Below, one piece after another: positions 20,971 to 59,729 of a stretch of DNA of 64,000 nucleotides; positions within the stretch are counted from its first letter, which is position 1; every line of letters begins with the position of its first letter. The stretch lies in the sequence record OP279344.1. One strand, written 5' to 3'. The stretch is from Escherichia phage P1. Under the pieces are notes generated by a model that saw nothing but the letters and a program-made list of their open reading frames with translations, did not search any database and was not told the DNA's origin. The position numbers were made by a program, and so were the translations under genes.

Positions 20971-21771
20971 ATGCAACAAACATTCAATGCGGATATGAAT
21001 ATATCAAACCTTCATCAAAATGTCGATCCTTCAACCACTCTGCCCGTTATTTGTGGTGTTGAAATTACGACCGACCGCGCTGGCCGTTACAACCTTAATG
21101 CTCTACACAGAGCGAGCGGACTCGGTGCCCATAAAGCGCCAGCTCAATGGCTAAGAACGCTGTCAGCTAAACAGCTCATCGAAGAGCTTGAAAAAGAAAC
21201 TATGCAGAATTGCATAGTTTCGTTCGAAGGCCGTGGCGGCGGCACTTTTGCCCATGAATTGCTCGCTGTGGAGTACGCAGGCTGGATTTCTCCCGCGTTT
21301 CGGCTGAAGGTAAACCAGACATTTATCGACTATCGAACCGGAAGATTACAACCTGCTATTCCGCAGAGTCTCCCTGAAGCTCTCCGTTTGGCTGCCGACC
21401 TGGCAGAGCAAAAGCAACGGCTGGAGCAAAAAATGCTTATGGATGCACCTAAAGTCGAATTCGCTGAACGCGTTGCTACCGCCAGCGGGGTTCTAATCGG
21501 CAACTATGCCAAAGTGCTCGGCCTGGGCCAAAACTATCTCTTCACCTGGTTGCGTGATAACGGAATTCTGATCGCAACCGGTGAACGCAGGAACGTCCCC
21601 AAACAAGAATACATATCTCGTGGGTATTTCACCCTTAAAGAAACCGTGATCGATACAAGCAATGGAAGCAGGATTTCTTTCACGACTCGTATAACCGGCA
21701 AAGGTCAGCAGTGGCTGATGAAGCGATTGCTTGATGCTGGTGTGCTGGTACCTGTCGCGGCAACGCGCTAA
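20971..21771 (+). CDS. kilA: KilA (KilA-N domain + KilAC domain), 266 aa
   Basis: N-terminal KilA-N-like region; C-terminus paralogous to the Ant C-terminus; precedes repL. Confidence 0.8.
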   Translation: MQQTFNADMNISNLHQNVDPSTTLPVICGVEITTDRAGRYNLNALHRASGLGAHKAPAQWLRTLSAKQLIEELEKETMQNCIVSFEGRGGGTFAHELLAVEYAGWISPAFRLKVNQTFIDYRTGRLQPAIPQSLPEALRLAADLAEQKQRLEQKMLMDAPKVEFAERVATASGVLIGNYAKVLGLGQNYLFTWLRDNGILIATGERRNVPKQEYISRGYFTLKETVIDTSNGSRISFTTRITGKGQQWLMKRLLDAGVLVPVAATR

Positions 21772-21800: not shown

Positions 21801-22646
21801 ATGCTGGCTAAAGTCACTTTCCTGAGCTGTATAACGATGAGCGATTTTACTTTTTCTGGCTATGAATTGGCCTGCTTTGTAACACACTCCGGTCTATCCC
21901 GTAGCGCCGGGCATATCCTGTCGCAATGTGCAAATCTCGCGGCAACAACCAGTGAATACTTCATTCACAAGCCTCACCGCCTGATCGCGGCAGAAACTGG
22001 TTATAGCCAATCAACCGTCGTTCGTGCATTCCGTGAAGCTGTAAACAAAGGAATTCTGTCTGTAGAGATTGTTATCGGCGATCACCGTGAACGTCGCGCT
22101 AACCTGTACCGGTTTACACCATCCTTTTTGGCCTTCGCACAACAAGCCAAAAATGCGCTGATAGAAAGCAAATTAAAGATCTCTTCAGCGGCAACCAAGG
22201 TTAAAGCTGTTCTCGCTAAGACATTGGCTTTATTTAATTTTTTATCCACACCCCCATGTCAAAATGATACCCCCTCCCCCTGTCAGGATGACGTGGCAAT
22301 AAAGAATAAGAAGTCACAAGTTAAAAAAACAAAAAGATCAGTTTCCGGCGGTGCCGGAACAACCAGCCTCAAAAAATTGACTTCATGGATCGCTAAGGCA
22401 AAAGCAAAGGCTGACAATCTGCGGTTATCCAAAAAACGCACTCAAAAACATGAGTTCAAGCAGAAAGTAGAGGCGGCTGCGCGGAAATATGCTTACCTGA
22501 AGAACAAGCGTTCGCCTGATATTGGCGGGATATCAAACTTCGATAACCTACCGCATTGCATGACGGTAAACGAAGCTCTTAATGCGGTTTTAGCCAAAAA
22601 TAAAGATAACGAACAATGGGGTATACCGGCAGGATTCAGAGGGTAA
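21801..22646 (+). CDS. repL: RepL lytic-replicon initiator, 281 aa (oriL expected within)
   Basis: Size and position after kilA under a C1 operator; basic C-terminal half. Confidence 0.7.
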   Translation: MLAKVTFLSCITMSDFTFSGYELACFVTHSGLSRSAGHILSQCANLAATTSEYFIHKPHRLIAAETGYSQSTVVRAFREAVNKGILSVEIVIGDHRERRANLYRFTPSFLAFAQQAKNALIESKLKISSAATKVKAVLAKTLALFNFLSTPPCQNDTPSPCQDDVAIKNKKSQVKKTKRSVSGGAGTTSLKKLTSWIAKAKAKADNLRLSKKRTQKHEFKQKVEAAARKYAYLKNKRSPDIGGISNFDNLPHCMTVNEALNAVLAKNKDNEQWGIPAGFRG

Positions 22647-22814
22647 TGAATTGCTCTAATTATAACCATGCATACTTTCAACACCTCTAGTTTGCCATGA
22701 GGCAAACTCATAGGTGTCCTGGTAAGAGGACACTGTTGCCAAAACTGGACGCCCCATTATTGCAATTAATAAACAACTAACGGACAATTCTACCTAACAA
22801 TAAGTGGAGTTAAC

Positions 22815-23519
22815 ATGTTGAACCGAAGAACATTTAATGTATTCTGCGATGAATCCTGTCACCTACTAAATGATCATAATAAAGTCATGGTATTGGGTGC
22901 GCTTTGGTGTCCCGGCACTATCACAAAAAAAATTGCTAGAGACATCAAGGAATTAAAATTAAAACACAATCTAAAACCTGATTTCGAAATCAAGTGGACT
23001 AAAGTATCTGCGTCCAAAGTTGAATTTTACTTAGATGTCGTAGATTACTTCTTCAGCAACCCTGCATTGCGCTTTAGAGGTGTTGTTGTTCCTGATAAAG
23101 AGCAACTGGACCATGCTCGATTCCATCAAGATCATAATACTTTCTATTATAAGATGTTTTTTTATGTCTTAAAAAACATAATAGAAAGTAACAACACATA
23201 CAATATCTACCTAGATATAAAAGATACTTTAGGTATTGAAAAAATTGAGAAATTAAGAGGGGTTCTTCACAATGATCGCTATGATTACAATCATGAGTCG
23301 ATAAACAGAATTCAACATATACGATCTCATGAAGTGCAGCAATTGCAGCTAACGGATCTTTTCATTGGCGCGTTAGGCTACGTTCATCGAGGAATGAATA
23401 GCAACGCGGGAAAAATCCAAGTCATAAACAGAATAAAATCACATACAAACAGGGAGTTACTAAAAAGTACTCTTCCAACAGAAAGTAAATTTAATATTTT
23501 CGTGTGGGAGGCTCGCTGA
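22815..23519 (+). CDS. DUF3800-type protein, 234 aa (rlfA position)
   Basis: N-terminal DES motif (FCDESCH) and C-terminal QxxD motif (QLTDLF), as I recall defining DUF3800; strongly AT-rich. Confidence 0.5.
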   Translation: MLNRRTFNVFCDESCHLLNDHNKVMVLGALWCPGTITKKIARDIKELKLKHNLKPDFEIKWTKVSASKVEFYLDVVDYFFSNPALRFRGVVVPDKEQLDHARFHQDHNTFYYKMFFYVLKNIIESNNTYNIYLDIKDTLGIEKIEKLRGVLHNDRYDYNHESINRIQHIRSHEVQQLQLTDLFIGALGYVHRGMNSNAGKIQVINRIKSHTNRELLKSTLPTESKFNIFVWEAR

Positions 23520-23983
23520 TGCTTCAAATGCCAGATTTATTGTACTTCAATGGAAGTTGGCAAGAGTATATAGACGATGTATATGATGTTGTTAGAGAAG
23601 ATATTTTAATATCTAATATAACGTTTAAGGGTCTCCCTGTTCGATTACGTTATTCACCGGAATATAATGGGAAAGAATTCGGATTTTGGCATTTAGTATC
23701 AGAGGGAAAAATAGAAGAAGAACGTATACCCGATCTTGAACGGTGCAAGCGAATTCGCTGGATCGCGCACATGATAAGGAATTATAACCATTGCGATATA
23801 TCATGTTGGTCTGAAAGACGAGGACCAACTGAAGAGTGGGTAATCTGGAATGAGTGTGAAAACTACGTTGTTGTGCTATCCGCACGTAGAGACTATTGGC
23901 TTCTCAAAACAGCCTATGTTGTAACCTATGACAGTAAAATCAGAACACTCAAACAAAGCAGAAAAAGAGCACTTGGGACATAA
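23519..23983 (+). CDS. Hypothetical partner protein, about 154 aa, translationally coupled to the DUF3800 gene (rlfB position)
   Basis: TGATG stop/start overlap at 23517-23521 (ORF track starts at 23504); AT-rich; no recognisable motif. Confidence 0.45.
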   Translation: MLQMPDLLYFNGSWQEYIDDVYDVVREDILISNITFKGLPVRLRYSPEYNGKEFGFWHLVSEGKIEEERIPDLERCKRIRWIAHMIRNYNHCDISCWSERRGPTEEWVIWNECENYVVVLSARRDYWLLKTAYVVTYDSKIRTLKQSRKRALGT

Positions 23984-24148
23984 AAAGCTGAACCCGACAC
24001 ATATTGCTATGTATCGGGTTCGATCGCTCTTTCTACACATGGTAGATGAGTAATGCAAATCTAACCGATCTACTTTAGCTTTTCAATAGCTAGCTATAAC
24101 TTTCCGCACATATTCTTCTGATAATTCCGGGAGAGCGGTTGGGTTTTT

Positions 24149-24445
24149 TCATGCTTTTCTGCGCAGAGAAGCACACTTATTCAGCAATAATAAGTGCAAT
24201 TCTTTGTTATCACTAAGTATTTCTACACACCAATATCGTAACGTGTTCACTTCAAGTGTAGCCAGCACCTTATGTCGAAAAGCCCCCTCCCCTACACATA
24301 ACGATGGCTGACATTCTGCTAAGGCACATAACCATGTATTGGCATCATAGAGAATCCAATAATGCTCCTCGGAAATAGTTTTGCATCCAATTATTTCGAA
24401 TCTTCGTTCTATCGTTTCAGGAGAGTATGAAAAATCAATTTCCAT
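24149..24445 (-). CDS. Hypothetical protein, 98 aa
   Basis: ORF track; AT-rich. Confidence 0.3.
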   Translation of the reverse strand: MEIDFSYSPETIERRFEIIGCKTISEEHYWILYDANTWLCALAECQPSLCVGEGAFRHKVLATLEVNTLRYWCVEILSDNKELHLLLLNKCASLRRKA

Positions 24446-24528
24446 AATATGCTCAAAATTTCGCTATATTGACATGATTTAAGCACAAAAAAGCTCCCGA
24501 AGGAGCTTTAAAATACAAGGGATGACTC

Positions 24529-25038
24529 TTAATCCCACTCAATCCAGTTGTAGACGATACGAAGTGACGGGCGCACAGCAGCAGTCACATCTTCGGTACT
24601 AAAGTCGATTGCATCACTGTAGATTTTGCAGTCCAACATTTCAATTGTTGTAGCAGCTTTTGTCACAGCGTTAACCCCGGAAGATTTGGATTCAGGGGTA
24701 GCAGCCATCGTGATATCAACATAGTCCTTCGCCGCAATGCGATCCTTGATGAACTGAAGAATATCGCCTTCGATAGTCTCCACGCACTGGACCTGGATTT
24801 CCCCAGAGTTTCGAATTGGTCCGTGCTGGTTGAACTTCACACCATTCGGACCATAGTCCTCCACATCCTCGCGGGTCATTTCAGGAATTTGCGACGTGCG
24901 AACCAGTACGCTGATATCTTCATGGCCTGCAAAAGTGAGCTGGAATTCAGAAGATACCAGTCGTTCGCCTTTGGCCGCGTTGGCAGTATAGCGGCCCTTA
25001 ATAAATTTACGGTTTCCCTTAGTGTTATTGTGCCCCAT
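24529..25038 (-). CDS. Tail structural protein, 169 aa (tube-like)
   Basis: ORF track; immediately downstream of the sheath-side gene cluster. Confidence 0.4.
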   Translation of the reverse strand: MGHNNTKGNRKFIKGRYTANAAKGERLVSSEFQLTFAGHEDISVLVRTSQIPEMTREDVEDYGPNGVKFNQHGPIRNSGEIQVQCVETIEGDILQFIKDRIAAKDYVDITMAATPESKSSGVNAVTKAATTIEMLDCKIYSDAIDFSTEDVTAAVRPSLRIVYNWIEWD

Positions 25039-53350: not shown

Positions 53351-54048
53351 AGATTGCTTTAGTTCTTCGCTCTGGTGGTGACTATAACGCTTCCGATGTG
53401 CAGTGGCTGGTTAATCAACTGCCAAAAGACTATGAAATTATTTGCCTGACAGACCTGAAGTGTTTACATGTACCTGGCGTCAAAGTTATCCCATTGATCA
53501 ACCAGTGGCAAAAGTGCCGTGGCTGGTGGGCGAAAATCGAGTTGTTCCGACCGGATATAACCGATGATCTGTTCTATCTGGATTTGGACACGGTTATTGC
53601 CGGTGATATACGCCCAATCCTTGAGAATCCACCAACCAGCTTCACCATGCTTAGGGATTTTTACCATCCACAATATCGTGGTAGCGGTGCCCTGTGGATA
53701 CCAAATAGTGTTAAAGCGCATATCTGGAGTTCATTCTGGCAAGATCCGGAAGGTTGGATTTCTCGTTGTGTCACTACTGAGTGCTGGGGTGACCAGGGGT
53801 TCTTACGAAAGGTTATGGGCGATGATACACCAGCATTTCAGGATCTGTATCCAGGATGGTTTGTAAGTTACAAGGCCGATGTTGTGGAACCTGGTTCAAA
53901 ATATGCGAGCGCGCGTTACTCCAGGGGGAATGGGGCATTACCAAAAGACTGCCGAATAATCTTTTTCCACGGCAAACCGCGACCTCGCGAAGTGTCAGAG
54001 GATTGGCTTCCCCTTATCAGCTCATTTTTTGAGCGAGAATCAGAATAA
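53347..54048 (+). CDS. GT8-like glycosyltransferase, 233 aa
   Basis: YLDLDTV (DxD) and C-terminal FHGKPRP resembling the GT8 HxxGxxKPW motif; coupled to the phosphatase stop. Confidence 0.45.
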
Positions 54049-59191: not shown

Positions 59192-59644
59192 ATGTTACTT
59201 AACTGGCAGGGACGCCACTTCATGGAAATAAATCACTCACGAATAACATCGTACGAGATTGCGGATTACATGATCCGCACTAAATCTCTTCTATCAGCGA
59301 AAGAACTCGCAGCAATTCTTGAAAAGGAATACCCGCATCTGGATGTCGATAAGCGCGATGTTTATCTGCGCTTAAAGGCTATCGCTGTGTCTAAGTATTC
59401 GTCTGTTTTGATAGATGACAGTACACGCCCACGTAGATTTCAGATCCACTCTCTGAATCCTGAATTCTTTCGCCGTAGCCGCGCTCCGCGCCGGTTTGAT
59501 GAAAAACTCCAGAACGAACTCTATATGACGCAGGACGAAAAGGAACGCCGGGAGCACCAGCCTTGGGTAATGGCGCGTCAACTTTTCAATAAGGTGGCCC
59601 GTCAGCACCGTCATTACGGTAATGCCACATCCGCACGTATCTGA
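59192..59644 (+). CDS. lpa: Late-promoter activator candidate, 150 aa
   Basis: Small basic protein immediately upstream of pacA; positional. Confidence 0.5.
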   Translation: MLLNWQGRHFMEINHSRITSYEIADYMIRTKSLLSAKELAAILEKEYPHLDVDKRDVYLRLKAIAVSKYSSVLIDDSTRPRRFQIHSLNPEFFRRSRAPRRFDEKLQNELYMTQDEKERREHQPWVMARQLFNKVARQHRHYGNATSARI

Positions 59645-59729
59645 TTGATTGCTTGCCCGTTCCGGGCCTTTTGACATGTGACTTTCGTTACCCTCGCGTC
59701 AAAAAGAGTTTTTACGAAAGGAAGCATAA

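What the first reader, a model, noticed from the sequence alone, without database searches (positions are those of the whole stretch)
22815..23983. AT-rich DUF3800-type gene translationally coupled to an unknown partner, immediately downstream of repL
This interval (continuing AT-rich through the 98-aa ORF to ~24500) is visibly more AT-rich than the flanking phage backbone. Gene 1 (234 aa) carries the two motifs I recall as defining DUF3800, DES (FCDESCH) near the N-terminus and QxxD (QLTDLF) near the C-terminus. Gene 2 (~154 aa) starts at the TGATG stop/start overlap and has no recognisable motif. A compact, coupled, compositionally foreign two-gene unit in the early (repL) operon looks like an accessory module, possibly exclusion/abortive-infection or anti-defence; the function is open.
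Basis: partly seen in the sequence, partly recalled or inferred. Interest (0 to 1): 0.6.

Follow-up and report, generated by a model that had tools for sequence, protein, structure and literature searches.

The report
P1 rlfAB nuclease pair plus sRNA
The AT-rich gene pair is phage P1's known but uncharacterised rlfA-rlfB, a widely travelling candidate anti-phage module, and it always comes with a previously unannotated, highly conserved small RNA gene that many phages also carry on its own.

Summary
The window is phage P1 (100% identity). Gene 1 is rlfA (DUF3800; its model looks like RNase HII and keeps the acidic residues). Gene 2 is rlfB, starting at the TGATG overlap. The region has 36% GC against 47.5% for the window. 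Both genes are dispensable for P1 plaques and lie in a known variable cargo slot, present in about 17% of P1-like elements in E. coli. They match PADLOC's untested candidate defence system PDC-M04. In 80 of 80 bacterial loci with an RlfA relative, spanning more than ten phyla, an RlfB relative follows, usually with overlapping stop and start codons. The pair often sits between the modification/specificity genes and the restriction gene of type I or III restriction-modification operons. The RlfB model weakly resembles RelE/colicin D-type RNase toxins.

The new result is a third part. A roughly 70-nt small RNA gene (window 24051 to 23982, minus strand) has its own sigma-70 promoter, a near-invariant 24-nt hairpin and an intrinsic terminator. 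It lies convergent to rlfB in 79 of 79 loci and shows strong covariation. It is absent from Rfam and from the annotations checked. Copies without RlfAB occur in many phages (SPbeta family, tRNA arrays) and in E. coli islands. My best reading, which is inferred, is an RNA-controlled toxin/abortive-infection module, with phage-borne RNA copies acting as decoys.

The parts
22650..22666 (+). C1 repressor operator Orlf (formerly Op55) in the repL-rlfA spacer
   Evidence: P1 record annotation at 51575-51591, converted to window coordinates. The left 11 nt match the operator consensus ATTGCTCTAAT. The whole 17-mer has more than 3 mismatches, so the consensus scan did not list it.
22760..22788 (+). 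Predicted weak sigma-70 promoter PrlfA (annotation only)
   Evidence: P1 record annotation at 51685-51713. It falls below the threshold of the consensus scan.
22815..23519 (+). rlfA: a 234-aa DUF3800 protein with an RNase HII-like fold and conserved acidic residues D12, E13, D134 and D181
23519..23983 (+). rlfB: a 154-aa partner protein with no Pfam family. Its start overlaps the rlfA stop by one base. The conserved residues are F56, W57, H58, R69, R75, W81 and W97.
23982..24051 (-). Predicted ~70-nt small RNA gene convergent to rlfB. It consists of a 5' hairpin, a linker, a terminator hairpin and a U tract that overlaps the rlfB stop codon.
   Evidence: The covariance model gives its only hit in the 64-kb window here: 24056-23969 (-), 64.8 bits, E 2.6e-15. 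The same element is present in 79 of 79 homologous loci. Covariation is strong. The single-sequence fold is -29.7 kcal/mol with z -6.3.
24027..24050 (-). Near-invariant 24-nt 5' hairpin of the RNA (CUCAUCUACCAUGUGUAGAAAGAG in P1)
   Evidence: Compensatory changes occur in 5 of its 8 pairs. G-U pairs occur only on this strand.
23990..24021 (-). Terminator hairpin of the small RNA, followed by AGCUUUUU. pmgF transcripts also run into it.
   Evidence: Terminator scan. Nine of its 10 modelled pairs show compensatory changes.
24058..24086 (-). Sigma-70-type promoter of the small RNA: -35 TTGAAA at 24086-24081, a 17-nt spacer, and -10 TAGATT at 24063-24058
   Evidence: Promoter scan. The TTGAC and TAtaaT signals are positionally conserved, and 120 of 138 dereplicated homologous loci have at least 8 of 12 matches at the same distance.
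24149..24445 (-). pmgF: a 98-aa protein of unknown function. It travels with rlfAB in P1-like elements but is not part of the conserved module.
   Evidence: It is found in the same number of E. coli genomes as rlfAB, 121. It has no homologue in the 80 non-P1 loci. It matches no Pfam or PADLOC family.

Best explanation
rlfA, rlfB and an unannotated convergent small RNA form one three-part mobile cassette, which P1 carries as cargo between repL and the tail genes.

Shown:
- The three parts are linked in every locus examined.
- The cassette moves between restriction-modification operons, prophages, integrative elements and P1-like phage-plasmids.
- It is dispensable for P1 lytic growth.
- RlfA is modelled as an RNase HII-like enzyme with conserved acidic residues.
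- The RNA has its own promoter, terminator and covarying structure.

Inferred:
- The cassette is a toxin-antitoxin-like abortive-infection or defence module. RlfA, possibly together with the RelE/colicin D-like RlfB, is a nuclease effector acting on RNA or RNA-DNA hybrids.
- The constitutively made small RNA is the controlling partner, either a protein-bound RNA antitoxin or cofactor in the manner of type III systems, or a cis-antisense regulator.
- When a phage shuts off host transcription or displaces the RNA, the nuclease is released.
- RNA copies in phages that lack RlfAB would then be decoys that keep such systems switched off.
For: Identity of the genes:
- The window is P1 and the genes are rlfA and rlfB.
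- They match PADLOC PDC-M04A and PDC-M04B at E 1e-95 and 3.5e-52. PDC systems were derived from genes embedded in defence operons and are untested.

Linkage of the two proteins:
- In 80 of 80 loci found through RlfA, RlfB lies directly downstream.
- In 90 of 93 loci found through RlfB, an intact RlfA lies upstream.
- Stop and start codons overlap in 64 of 77 junctions.
- The pairwise distances of A and B correlate (r 0.45, Mantel p <= 0.001), and B evolves faster (mean identity 0.40 against 0.59).

Genomic context:
- The nearest upstream ORF is HsdS in 16 of 72 loci; others are HsdM or a type III Mod.
- The nearest downstream ORF is a restriction subunit in about 11 of 72 loci. GmrSD, MmeI, Eco57I, KwaB and AIPR also appear among the neighbours.
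- The pair lies next to integrases of prophages and integrative elements and in the nin region of a lambdoid prophage.

Status in P1:
- The genes are non-essential.
- They lie in a variable slot and are present in 121 of 708 P1-like backbones.

Folds:

The RNA:
- One model hit per locus in 79 of 79 loci, always on the opposite strand just after B.
- 97.1% of cells are paired, against 84% after shuffling and 37-49% after sliding the partners. There are 262 double-change cells against 55 expected, and 0 of 500 shuffles reach this.
- The promoter is conserved.

Orphan copies:
- 91 of 120 viral contigs with the RNA core lack RlfAB, and all 54 tested match the full model.
- 22 of these 54 loci carry tRNA genes, and the RNA often lies inside a tRNA array.
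- Copies occur in SPbeta-family phages.
- 53 E. coli chromosomes carry copies; the two examined have no RlfAB.
Against: - No experiment shows anti-phage activity, toxicity or expression of the RNA.
- PDC-M04 is only a candidate system.
- In P1 the genes lie behind a C1 operator and are reported to behave as early lytic genes. That is not the usual pattern for a defence gene protecting a lysogen.
- Intact RlfA with a broken RlfB and the reverse are about equally rare, so the decay pattern gives no clue as to which protein is the toxin.
- No conserved base-pairing target of the RNA was found in the rlfAB mRNA.
- The RNA is a single copy downstream of the genes, unlike type III antitoxin repeats.
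- Orphan RNA copies could have a function unrelated to RlfAB.
Confidence: 0.5

Rival explanations
1. Selfish addiction module. The three parts form a toxin-antitoxin cassette whose only role is to stabilise whatever carries it (the P1 plasmid, restriction-modification operons, genomic islands), with no anti-phage function.
For: The layout resembles a toxin-antitoxin system: tightly coupled genes plus a separately transcribed small RNA. It occurs on many mobile elements. Orphan RNA copies could serve as anti-addiction elements.
Against: P1 already carries phd-doc for this purpose. The strong preference for positions inside restriction-modification and other defence operons and the RNA copies inside the tRNA arrays of large phages point to phage-host conflict. 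Many toxin-antitoxin modules are also abortive-infection systems, so this rival overlaps with the main model.
Confidence: 0.15
2. A phage-serving early function. In P1 the pair acts for the phage during lytic growth, for example by host takeover, exclusion of competitors during the lytic cycle, or anti-defence such as degrading RNA-DNA hybrid molecules like retron msDNA.
For: The genes lie directly after repL with no plus-strand terminator in between. A C1 operator is annotated in the spacer. A transcriptome preprint treats rlfA and rlfB as early genes induced together with repL.
Against: Most homologues are chromosomal and embedded in bacterial restriction-modification operons, which is hard to reconcile with an anti-defence role. 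83% of P1-like elements do without the pair. Knock-down has no effect on plaque formation.
Confidence: 0.12
3. Replication-linked function, as the gene names suggest. RlfA would be an RNase H that processes the transcript or R-loop at the lytic origin oriL inside repL.
For: RlfA has an RNase HII-like fold, sits next to repL/oriL, and was historically named for this position. PHROGs labels RlfB a 'replication protein'.
Against: The names rest on position only. The genes are non-essential and absent from most P1-like elements that keep repL. Homologues elsewhere lie next to restriction-modification genes and integrases. Only one lies near replication genes, and it is on the opposite strand.
Confidence: 0.05
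4. The conserved downstream element is not a functional partner. It would be only a bidirectional terminator or insulator, or a cis-antisense regulator of rlfAB mRNA stability.
For: Its terminator abuts the rlfB stop codon. The convergent geometry with overlapping 3' ends matches known antisense regulators.
Against: A terminator does not need its own positioned promoter, nor a 24-nt hairpin that is nearly invariant across phyla. A purely cis-antisense RNA has no reason to keep its primary sequence. The same RNA also exists as stand-alone copies far from any RlfAB gene.
Confidence: 0.1

Closest known systems
PADLOC phage defence candidate PDC-M04 (from guilt-by-embedding, Payne et al. preprint 10.1101/2024.01.29.577857)
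   Same: RlfA and RlfB match its two protein models (E 1e-95 and 3.5e-52). My own neighbourhood survey recovers the embedding in type I restriction-modification operons and adds type III.
   Different: PDC-M04 is defined as two proteins and is untested. I found no paper that mentions the RNA component, or that equates PDC-M04 with P1 rlfAB.
PrrC and RloC anticodon nucleases embedded in type I restriction-modification loci
   Same: They occupy the same genomic niche, between the specificity/modification genes and the restriction gene, and may likewise be latent RNases serving as a second line of defence. This comparison rests on established knowledge of PrrC; the niche itself was seen.
   Different: There is no sequence or fold relation. 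PrrC is one ABC-ATPase-type protein held in check by the restriction enzyme, whereas here there are two small proteins and an RNA. The P1 copy is not embedded in any restriction-modification operon.
Type III toxin-antitoxin abortive-infection systems (ToxIN, AbiQ/antiQ)
   Same: They combine a protein nuclease with a separately structured small RNA made from a strong promoter, and phages can escape by carrying look-alike RNA. This comparison rests on established knowledge; orphan copies in phages were seen.
   Different: Type III antitoxins are tandem repeats upstream of the toxin gene on the same strand, and they are processed by a ToxN-fold toxin. Here there is a single hairpin RNA, convergent and downstream, with two proteins of other folds.
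DUF3800-associated RNA motifs DUF3800-I to -XI (Weinberg et al. 2017, PMC5737381)
   Same: DUF3800 genes are known to sit beside conserved structured RNAs, on either strand, several of which have intrinsic terminators and whose function is unknown.
   Different: No Rfam 15 family matches this RNA in P1 or in homologous loci, even at permissive thresholds. Rfam does hold DUF3800-I and DUF3800-IX. This RNA also occurs far from any DUF3800 gene.
RNase HII / RNase H2 catalytic subunit
   Different: There is no detectable sequence relation. RlfA has extra invariant residues (S14, C15, H16, C32, E58, K60, W61) and an obligatory partner protein and RNA. Its substrate is unknown.
Retron type VII and Cas12a2/Cas12a3-associated TPR-DUF3800 proteins
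   Same: These are other cases in which a DUF3800 domain accompanies an RNA-based immune system.
   Different: RlfA has no reverse transcriptase, Cas or TPR partner, and the PADLOC scan returned only PDC-M04A and a weak PDC-S51 match for it.

Membership tests
DUF3800 (Pfam PF12686) | Match to the Pfam model above its gathering score | tested here: met
   54.2 bits against a cut-off of 21, E 3.5e-14, covering residues 8-189 and profile positions 1-148 of 149.
DUF3800 (Pfam PF12686) | N-terminal DE motif and C-terminal QxxD motif | tested here: met
   D12-E13 lie in FCDESCH and Q178-D181 in QLTDLF. All four are invariant in 116 homologues.
RNase H-like superfamily, RNase HII type | RNase H fold with closest similarity to type 2 RNases H | tested here: met
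RNase H-like superfamily, RNase HII type | Four catalytic carboxylates in the canonical positions, and metal-dependent cleavage | tested here: inconclusive
   D12/E13 (end of strand 1), D134 (end of strand 4) and D181 (helix) are invariant and lie in the expected secondary-structure elements. No 3D superposition of side chains and no enzyme assay was possible.
PADLOC candidate system PDC-M04 | Both protein models matched by adjacent genes | tested here: met
   PDC-M04A scores E 1e-95 and PDC-M04B scores E 3.5e-52, and the genes overlap by one base.
PADLOC candidate system PDC-M04 | Anti-phage activity | not testable with these tools
   The 145 PDC systems are described as untested and mostly still unvalidated in 2026.
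RelE/ParE and BECR-fold RNase toxins (for RlfB) | Significant structural similarity to family members | tested here: inconclusive
RelE/ParE and BECR-fold RNase toxins (for RlfB) | Sequence or profile similarity to the family | tested here: not met
   None of 121 homologues matches a Pfam toxin family. hhalign against RelE and YoeB gives probability below 1%. A profile search of PDB sequences gives nothing.
Type III toxin-antitoxin systems | Tandem-repeat RNA antitoxin upstream of the toxin gene on the same strand | tested here: not met
   There is a single copy, downstream, on the opposite strand in 79 of 79 loci. Tandem two-hairpin versions exist only in some orphan phage copies.
Type I toxin-antitoxin systems | Antisense RNA that overlaps the mRNA of a small hydrophobic toxin peptide | tested here: not met
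   The geometry is convergent with overlapping 3' ends. However, the proteins are soluble-looking folds of 234 and 154 aa, and the RNA has no conserved pairing site in the mRNA.
Rfam families, including DUF3800-I and DUF3800-IX | Covariance-model match at or near the gathering score | tested here: not met
   No such match in the window or in 11 loci at the gathering score. Only noise of at most 15 bits appears at E up to 10.
Independent small RNA gene | Own promoter, conserved structure with covariation, intrinsic terminator, and evidence for which strand is transcribed | tested here: met
   Promoter logo and 120 of 138 loci with a positioned match. 14 of 18 pairs show compensatory changes and 0 of 500 shuffles do as well. 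A hairpin plus U tract is present. About 10% of cells are G-U pairs, which would be A-C mismatches on the other strand. Whether the RNA is transcribed was not testable.

The most novel reading that the evidence does not exclude
The ~70-nt RNA is the antitoxin or immunity factor of a widespread defence system built from a DUF3800 nuclease and an RlfB partner. Phages, including the SPbeta family and large phages that place it inside their tRNA arrays, carry stand-alone copies as RNA decoys to disarm that system. This would give the first function for a DUF3800 protein and its long-puzzling RNA partners, testable directly in P1 and E. coli.
Probability: 0.25. Interest if true: 0.85.

Novelty: new variant of a known kind. 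Interest (0 to 1): 0.62.

Why it matters
DUF3800 proteins turn up next to retrons, Cas12a2/a3 systems and eleven unrelated RNA motifs, yet no function is known for any of them. This cassette puts a DUF3800 enzyme, an obligatory partner protein and a sharply defined small RNA into phage P1 and E. coli, which is an easy genetic system to work in. Relatives lie inside restriction-modification operons in more than ten phyla, and RNA-only copies sit in model phages such as SPbeta. If the RNA controls the nucleases, this would be a new kind of RNA-controlled abortive-infection system, together with a ready-made example of phage counter-defence by RNA mimicry. Even if that model is wrong, the RNA is a widespread, well-supported and unannotated non-coding gene in P1, SPbeta and many E. 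coli genomes.

Tried and rejected
- **Known RNA family.** Rfam searches of the window, of 11 loci and of two short stretches at permissive thresholds gave only noise.
- **RNA pairing with rlfAB mRNA.** The best duplex energy equals that of shuffled RNA (-23.3 against -23.7 kcal/mol), and the sites are scattered. A 7-nt match to some rlfB start sites is not general and is absent in P1.
- **The loop AUG starting a small ORF.** This was rejected. About a quarter of sequences have ACG, AGG or AAG instead, there are 1-nt indels just after it, the changes are paired rather than codon-like, and there is no stop codon before the terminator.
- **pmgF as a fourth part.** It occurs in the same number of E. 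coli genomes as rlfAB but has no homologue in the 80 other loci.
- **A structured RNA in the repL-rlfA spacer.** It folds well (z -3.5), but it is conserved only in P1-like elements. Elsewhere rlfA abuts the upstream gene.
- **Using gene decay to tell toxin from antitoxin.** Broken B with intact A (3 of 80) and broken or absent A with intact B (3 of 93) are equally rare.
- **Sequence searches of solved structures.** Both proteins and both profiles gave nothing.
- **Profile comparison of RlfB with RelE and YoeB.** Nothing.
- **Fusion proteins as evidence of interaction.** Among the 150 best of 1,857 RlfB representatives, almost all are stand-alone proteins of about 150-190 aa (a few fragments, a few up to 255 aa).
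- **Other cargo in the same P1 slot.** Small ORFs with no PADLOC hit and only sub-threshold GNAT matches, plus an IS605 insertion.
- **The four large genes beside an E. coli orphan RNA.** No PADLOC hit.
- **Not available or not held.** The P1 genome paper and one 2026 preprint could not be read. The supplement describing the DUF3800 RNA motifs is not held.
Full report
**1.

Window 22600-24600 is 100% identical to phage P1 (AF234172 / NC_005856, record positions 51525-53525) and 97% identical to P7. The two genes are annotated there as rlfA and rlfB ('replication-linked function'; rapA and rapB in P7).

- rlfA is 22815-23519 (234 aa). It carries FCDESCH at residues 10-16 and QLTDLF at 178-183. 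It matches Pfam DUF3800 well above the cut-off (54.2 bits against 21).
- rlfB starts at ATG 23519, which shares its A with the rlfA stop codon (TGATG), and ends at 23983 (154 aa). The annotation and the N-termini of homologues support this start rather than the upstream GTG at 23504.
- GC is 36.4% for the finding, against a window mean of 47.5% (sd 3.4%). Only 1.8% of equal-sized windows are as low.

**2. Status in P1**

CRISPRi knock-down of rlfA, rlfB and pmgF does not reduce plaque formation (PMC10695390). Comparative papers list rlfA-rlfB-pmgF as one of eight variable, low-GC regions of P1-like phage-plasmids, often replaced by other ORFs (PMC6906374 and PMC9603915). I saw the same in phage records, where the slot holds small unknown ORFs or an IS605 element.

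Among 5,426 complete E. coli genomes, the neighbouring backbone genes bplB-pmgG occur in 708, rlfAB in 121 and pmgF in 121. The cassette is therefore cargo, present in about 17% of P1-like elements.

A C1 operator (Orlf/Op55) is annotated 4 nt after the repL stop. No plus-strand terminator separates repL from rlfA. A transcriptome preprint treats rlfA and rlfB as early genes. The regulation is otherwise unknown.

**3. The two proteins**

Both match PADLOC's candidate system PDC-M04 (A: E 1e-95; B: E 3.5e-52) and no validated system. PDC systems are 145 untested candidates found because they are embedded in BREX, DISARM or type I restriction-modification operons (preprint 10.1101/2024.01.29.577857). 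They are still described as mostly unvalidated in 2026.

**4. The pair elsewhere**

The best 80 are 48-74% identical and come from more than ten phyla.

- All 80 have an RlfB relative directly downstream on the same strand; three of these are frameshifted.
- In 64 of 77 junctions the stop and start codons overlap, most often as ATGA or TGATG/TAATG, and the rest are within 14 nt.
- Starting instead from RlfB, 90 of 93 loci with enough upstream sequence have an intact RlfA.
- The two proteins' pairwise distances correlate (r 0.45, Mantel p <= 0.001). RlfB evolves faster (mean identity 0.40 against 0.59).
- The RlfB family has 1,857 representatives at 50% clustering, almost all stand-alone proteins of about 150-190 aa.

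**5. Neighbourhoods**

- The nearest upstream ORF is an HsdS specificity subunit in 16 of 72 loci. In others it is HsdM, a type III Mod methylase, or an MmeI- or Eco57I-type enzyme.
- The nearest downstream ORF is a type I or III restriction subunit in about 11 of 72 loci.
- GmrSD, KwaB, AIPR and integrases also occur.
- In many loci rlfA starts within a few bases of the upstream gene's stop.
- In Enterobacteriaceae the pair lies next to the integrase of a Rac-like prophage and of an integrative mobilisable element, in the nin region of a lambdoid prophage, and alone beside symE in Klebsiella.

This is the distribution of a defence or accessory cassette. It is the same niche as the anticodon nuclease PrrC (established knowledge).

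**6. The third component**

The 67 nt after the rlfB stop are conserved at the DNA level far beyond P1: 91% in Klebsiella and Biostraticola, where RlfB is only about 65% identical. A 24-nt core is 92-100% identical in loci from distant phyla.

An alignment of 126 distinct copies shows, on the strand opposite to rlfAB, the following layout:

- a 24-nt hairpin, CUCAUCUACCAUGUGUAGAAGGAG;
- a short linker;
- a GC-rich hairpin;
- the sequence AGCUUUUU.

The evidence for a structured RNA is as follows.

- RNAalifold predicts both hairpins, and 14 of 18 pairs keep pairing through double changes.
- 97.1% of cells are paired, against 83.8% after shuffling and 37-49% with slid partners. There are 262 double-change cells against 55 expected, and 0 of 500 shuffles do as well.
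- About a tenth of the cells are G-U pairs, which would be A-C mismatches on the rlfAB strand. The RNA is therefore read from the opposite strand.
- Upstream, in the RNA's sense, TTGAC lies at -37 to -33 and TAtaaT at -14 to -9 relative to the hairpin, mostly with 17-nt spacing. Of 138 dereplicated loci, 120 have at least 8 of 12 matches. Transcription would then start one or two bases before the hairpin.
- A covariance model finds exactly one copy per locus, always just after gene B on the opposite strand, in 79 of the 80 RlfA-seeded loci. The eightieth locus is cut off at that point. There are no other hits in 773 kb.

In the window the only hit is 24056-23969 (-), 64.8 bits. The P1 details are:

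- promoter: TTGAAA at 24086-24081 and TAGATT at 24063-24058;
- predicted RNA: about 24051 to 23982;
- fold: -29.7 kcal/mol, z -6.3;
- the U tract overlaps the rlfB stop codon.

Nothing is annotated there in the P1, SPbeta or RefSeq E. coli records. No Rfam 15 family matches, although Rfam holds DUF3800-I and DUF3800-IX. No paper in the library contains the core sequence. One caveat applies: the alignment seed was chosen by fuzzy matching to the core, so its 85% mean identity is biased upward. The model search that found it in all loci was not biased in this way.

**7. The RNA also exists alone**

- An exact search for the core in IMG/VR returned at least 120 viral contigs. Only 24 have RlfA and RlfB beside it (one more has RlfB but is cut short before RlfA), and 91 have neither.
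- All 54 orphan loci tested match the whole model at 27-74 bits.
- 22 of these 54 carry tRNA genes. The RNA often lies inside a tRNA array on the same strand, repeatedly between tRNA-Ser(GCT) and tRNA-Gly(TCC).
- Neighbouring ORFs show no DUF3800 and no recurrent family.
- Named carriers are the Bacillus SPbeta/phi3T family, which has a tandem two-hairpin version in the unannotated yonK-yonN gap, and two Vibrio phages.
- In E. coli, 174 genomes carry the RNA: 121 P1-like copies and 53 chromosomal copies at 80-90% identity. The two chromosomal copies I examined have no trace of RlfA or RlfB. They lie at the end of an island, after four large hypothetical genes that have no PADLOC hit.

**8. How it most likely works**

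*Shown:* a three-part cassette that is strictly linked, mobile, dispensable for P1, and preferentially embedded in defence operons. The RNA has the marks of an independent gene.

*Inferred:* it is an RNA-controlled toxin or abortive-infection module.

- RlfA, the best-conserved protein with intact acidic residues, is probably the nuclease.
- RlfB, which evolves faster and has a weak RelE/colicin D-like fold, may be a second RNase or the regulatory or sensor subunit.
- The near-invariant primary sequence of the RNA's loop and bulge argues for recognition by a conserved protein rather than simple antisense pairing. No conserved mRNA target was found.
- A constitutively made RNA that restrains a nuclease until a phage stops host transcription is the logic of type III systems such as ToxIN (established knowledge). 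RNA-only copies in phages would then be decoys.

I put about 0.9 on the three-part cassette being real, about 0.55 on a defence role, and about 0.3 on the RNA-antitoxin mechanism.

The main objection for P1 itself is that rlfAB seem to be early lytic genes behind a C1 operator. Their role in a lysogen is therefore unclear. The rival readings are:

- an addiction module with no defence role;
- a phage-serving early function;
- a replication-linked RNase H;
- an RNA that is only a terminator or antisense element.

These are weighed in the rival section. The replication idea is the weakest, because most P1-like elements keep repL without rlfAB.

**9. Comparison and novelty**

The two genes are already known as P1 genes and as PADLOC's PDC-M04. 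DUF3800 is known to be RNase H-like and to associate with structured RNAs.

As far as these tools and libraries show, the following are not reported:

- that the candidate system is P1 rlfAB;
- its strict three-part make-up with this particular RNA;
- the type III restriction-modification embedding;
- the RelE/colicin D-like lead for RlfB;
- the wide stand-alone distribution of the RNA in phages.

I file it as a new variant of a known kind: a nuclease module with an RNA partner.

Noticed in passing
window 24149-24445 (-): pmgF (98 aa, no known family) is found in the same number of E. coli genomes as rlfAB (121) and is swapped out together with them in P1-like elements. It has no homologue in the 80 non-P1 loci. 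It lies directly upstream of the small RNA promoter on the same strand, so its transcripts would run into the RNA.
   Followed up: partly
L329 1221-1359 (Bacillus phage SPBc2, record about 59520-59658): SPbeta-family phages carry a tandem two-hairpin version of the RNA in the 1.7-kb unannotated gap between yonK and yonN, with no RlfA or RlfB nearby (hmmsearch of the 3-kb stretch).
   Followed up: partly
L330 2501-2568, L331 2501-2568, L332 1631-9292 (E. coli chromosomes): 53 E. coli chromosomes hold an RNA copy 80-90% identical to P1's. In the two examined there are no rlfAB genes. The copy sits at the end of an island after four consecutive hypothetical genes (843, 686, 918 and 104 aa) that match nothing in PADLOC, and the island is inserted at different chromosomal sites (near ghoT and near dinD).
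   Followed up: partly
L234, L247, L249, L250, L255, L274, L276 (IMG/VR contigs): In large phages the stand-alone RNA lies inside tRNA arrays of up to 31 tRNAs, on the same strand. In one group it lies repeatedly between tRNA-Ser(GCT) and tRNA-Gly(TCC).
   Followed up: partly
L013, L043, L045, L056, L064, L111, L166, L198: Some copies of the RNA have a 12-40-nt extra hairpin inserted in the loop of the conserved 5' hairpin, after ...CCAAC/CCAGC. This kind of variable insertion is typical of structured RNAs.
   Followed up: no
window 22647-22814 (+): The repL-rlfA spacer folds unusually well (-42.4 kcal/mol, z -3.5) and has two hairpins, but it is conserved only among P1-like elements. It contains the annotated C1 operator Orlf.
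   Followed up: partly
window 17251-19770: This is the only other low-GC island of the window (at most 40% GC). It covers the sim region, another published variable region of P1-like elements.
   Followed up: no
window 19763-20806 and 20971-21771 (+): Ant1 and KilA share a closely similar C-terminal half (PQ.LPEALRLAA.LAEQK ... GKGQQWL ... LLDAG.L.PVA), visible in the translations.
   Followed up: no
L085-L089 7300-9309 (Klebsiella chromosomes): A very common Klebsiella chromosomal copy of the pair (the RlfB homologue is indexed in 1,680 blocks of the collection) stands alone next to a SymE-family toxin gene, with the RNA 91% identical to P1's over 67 nt.
   Followed up: no
protein annotations of RlfB homologues (P0002, P0007, P0156; phrog_16230): Public names for RlfB relatives, 'oxidoreductase' in NCBI and 'replication protein' in PHROGs, are not supported by any domain, profile or fold search done here and look like propagated labels.
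   Followed up: yes
window 24490-24509: A strong hairpin with T runs on both sides lies between bplB and pmgF. It is flagged as a terminator on the minus strand, so pmgF may not be part of the tail-gene transcript.
   Followed up: no
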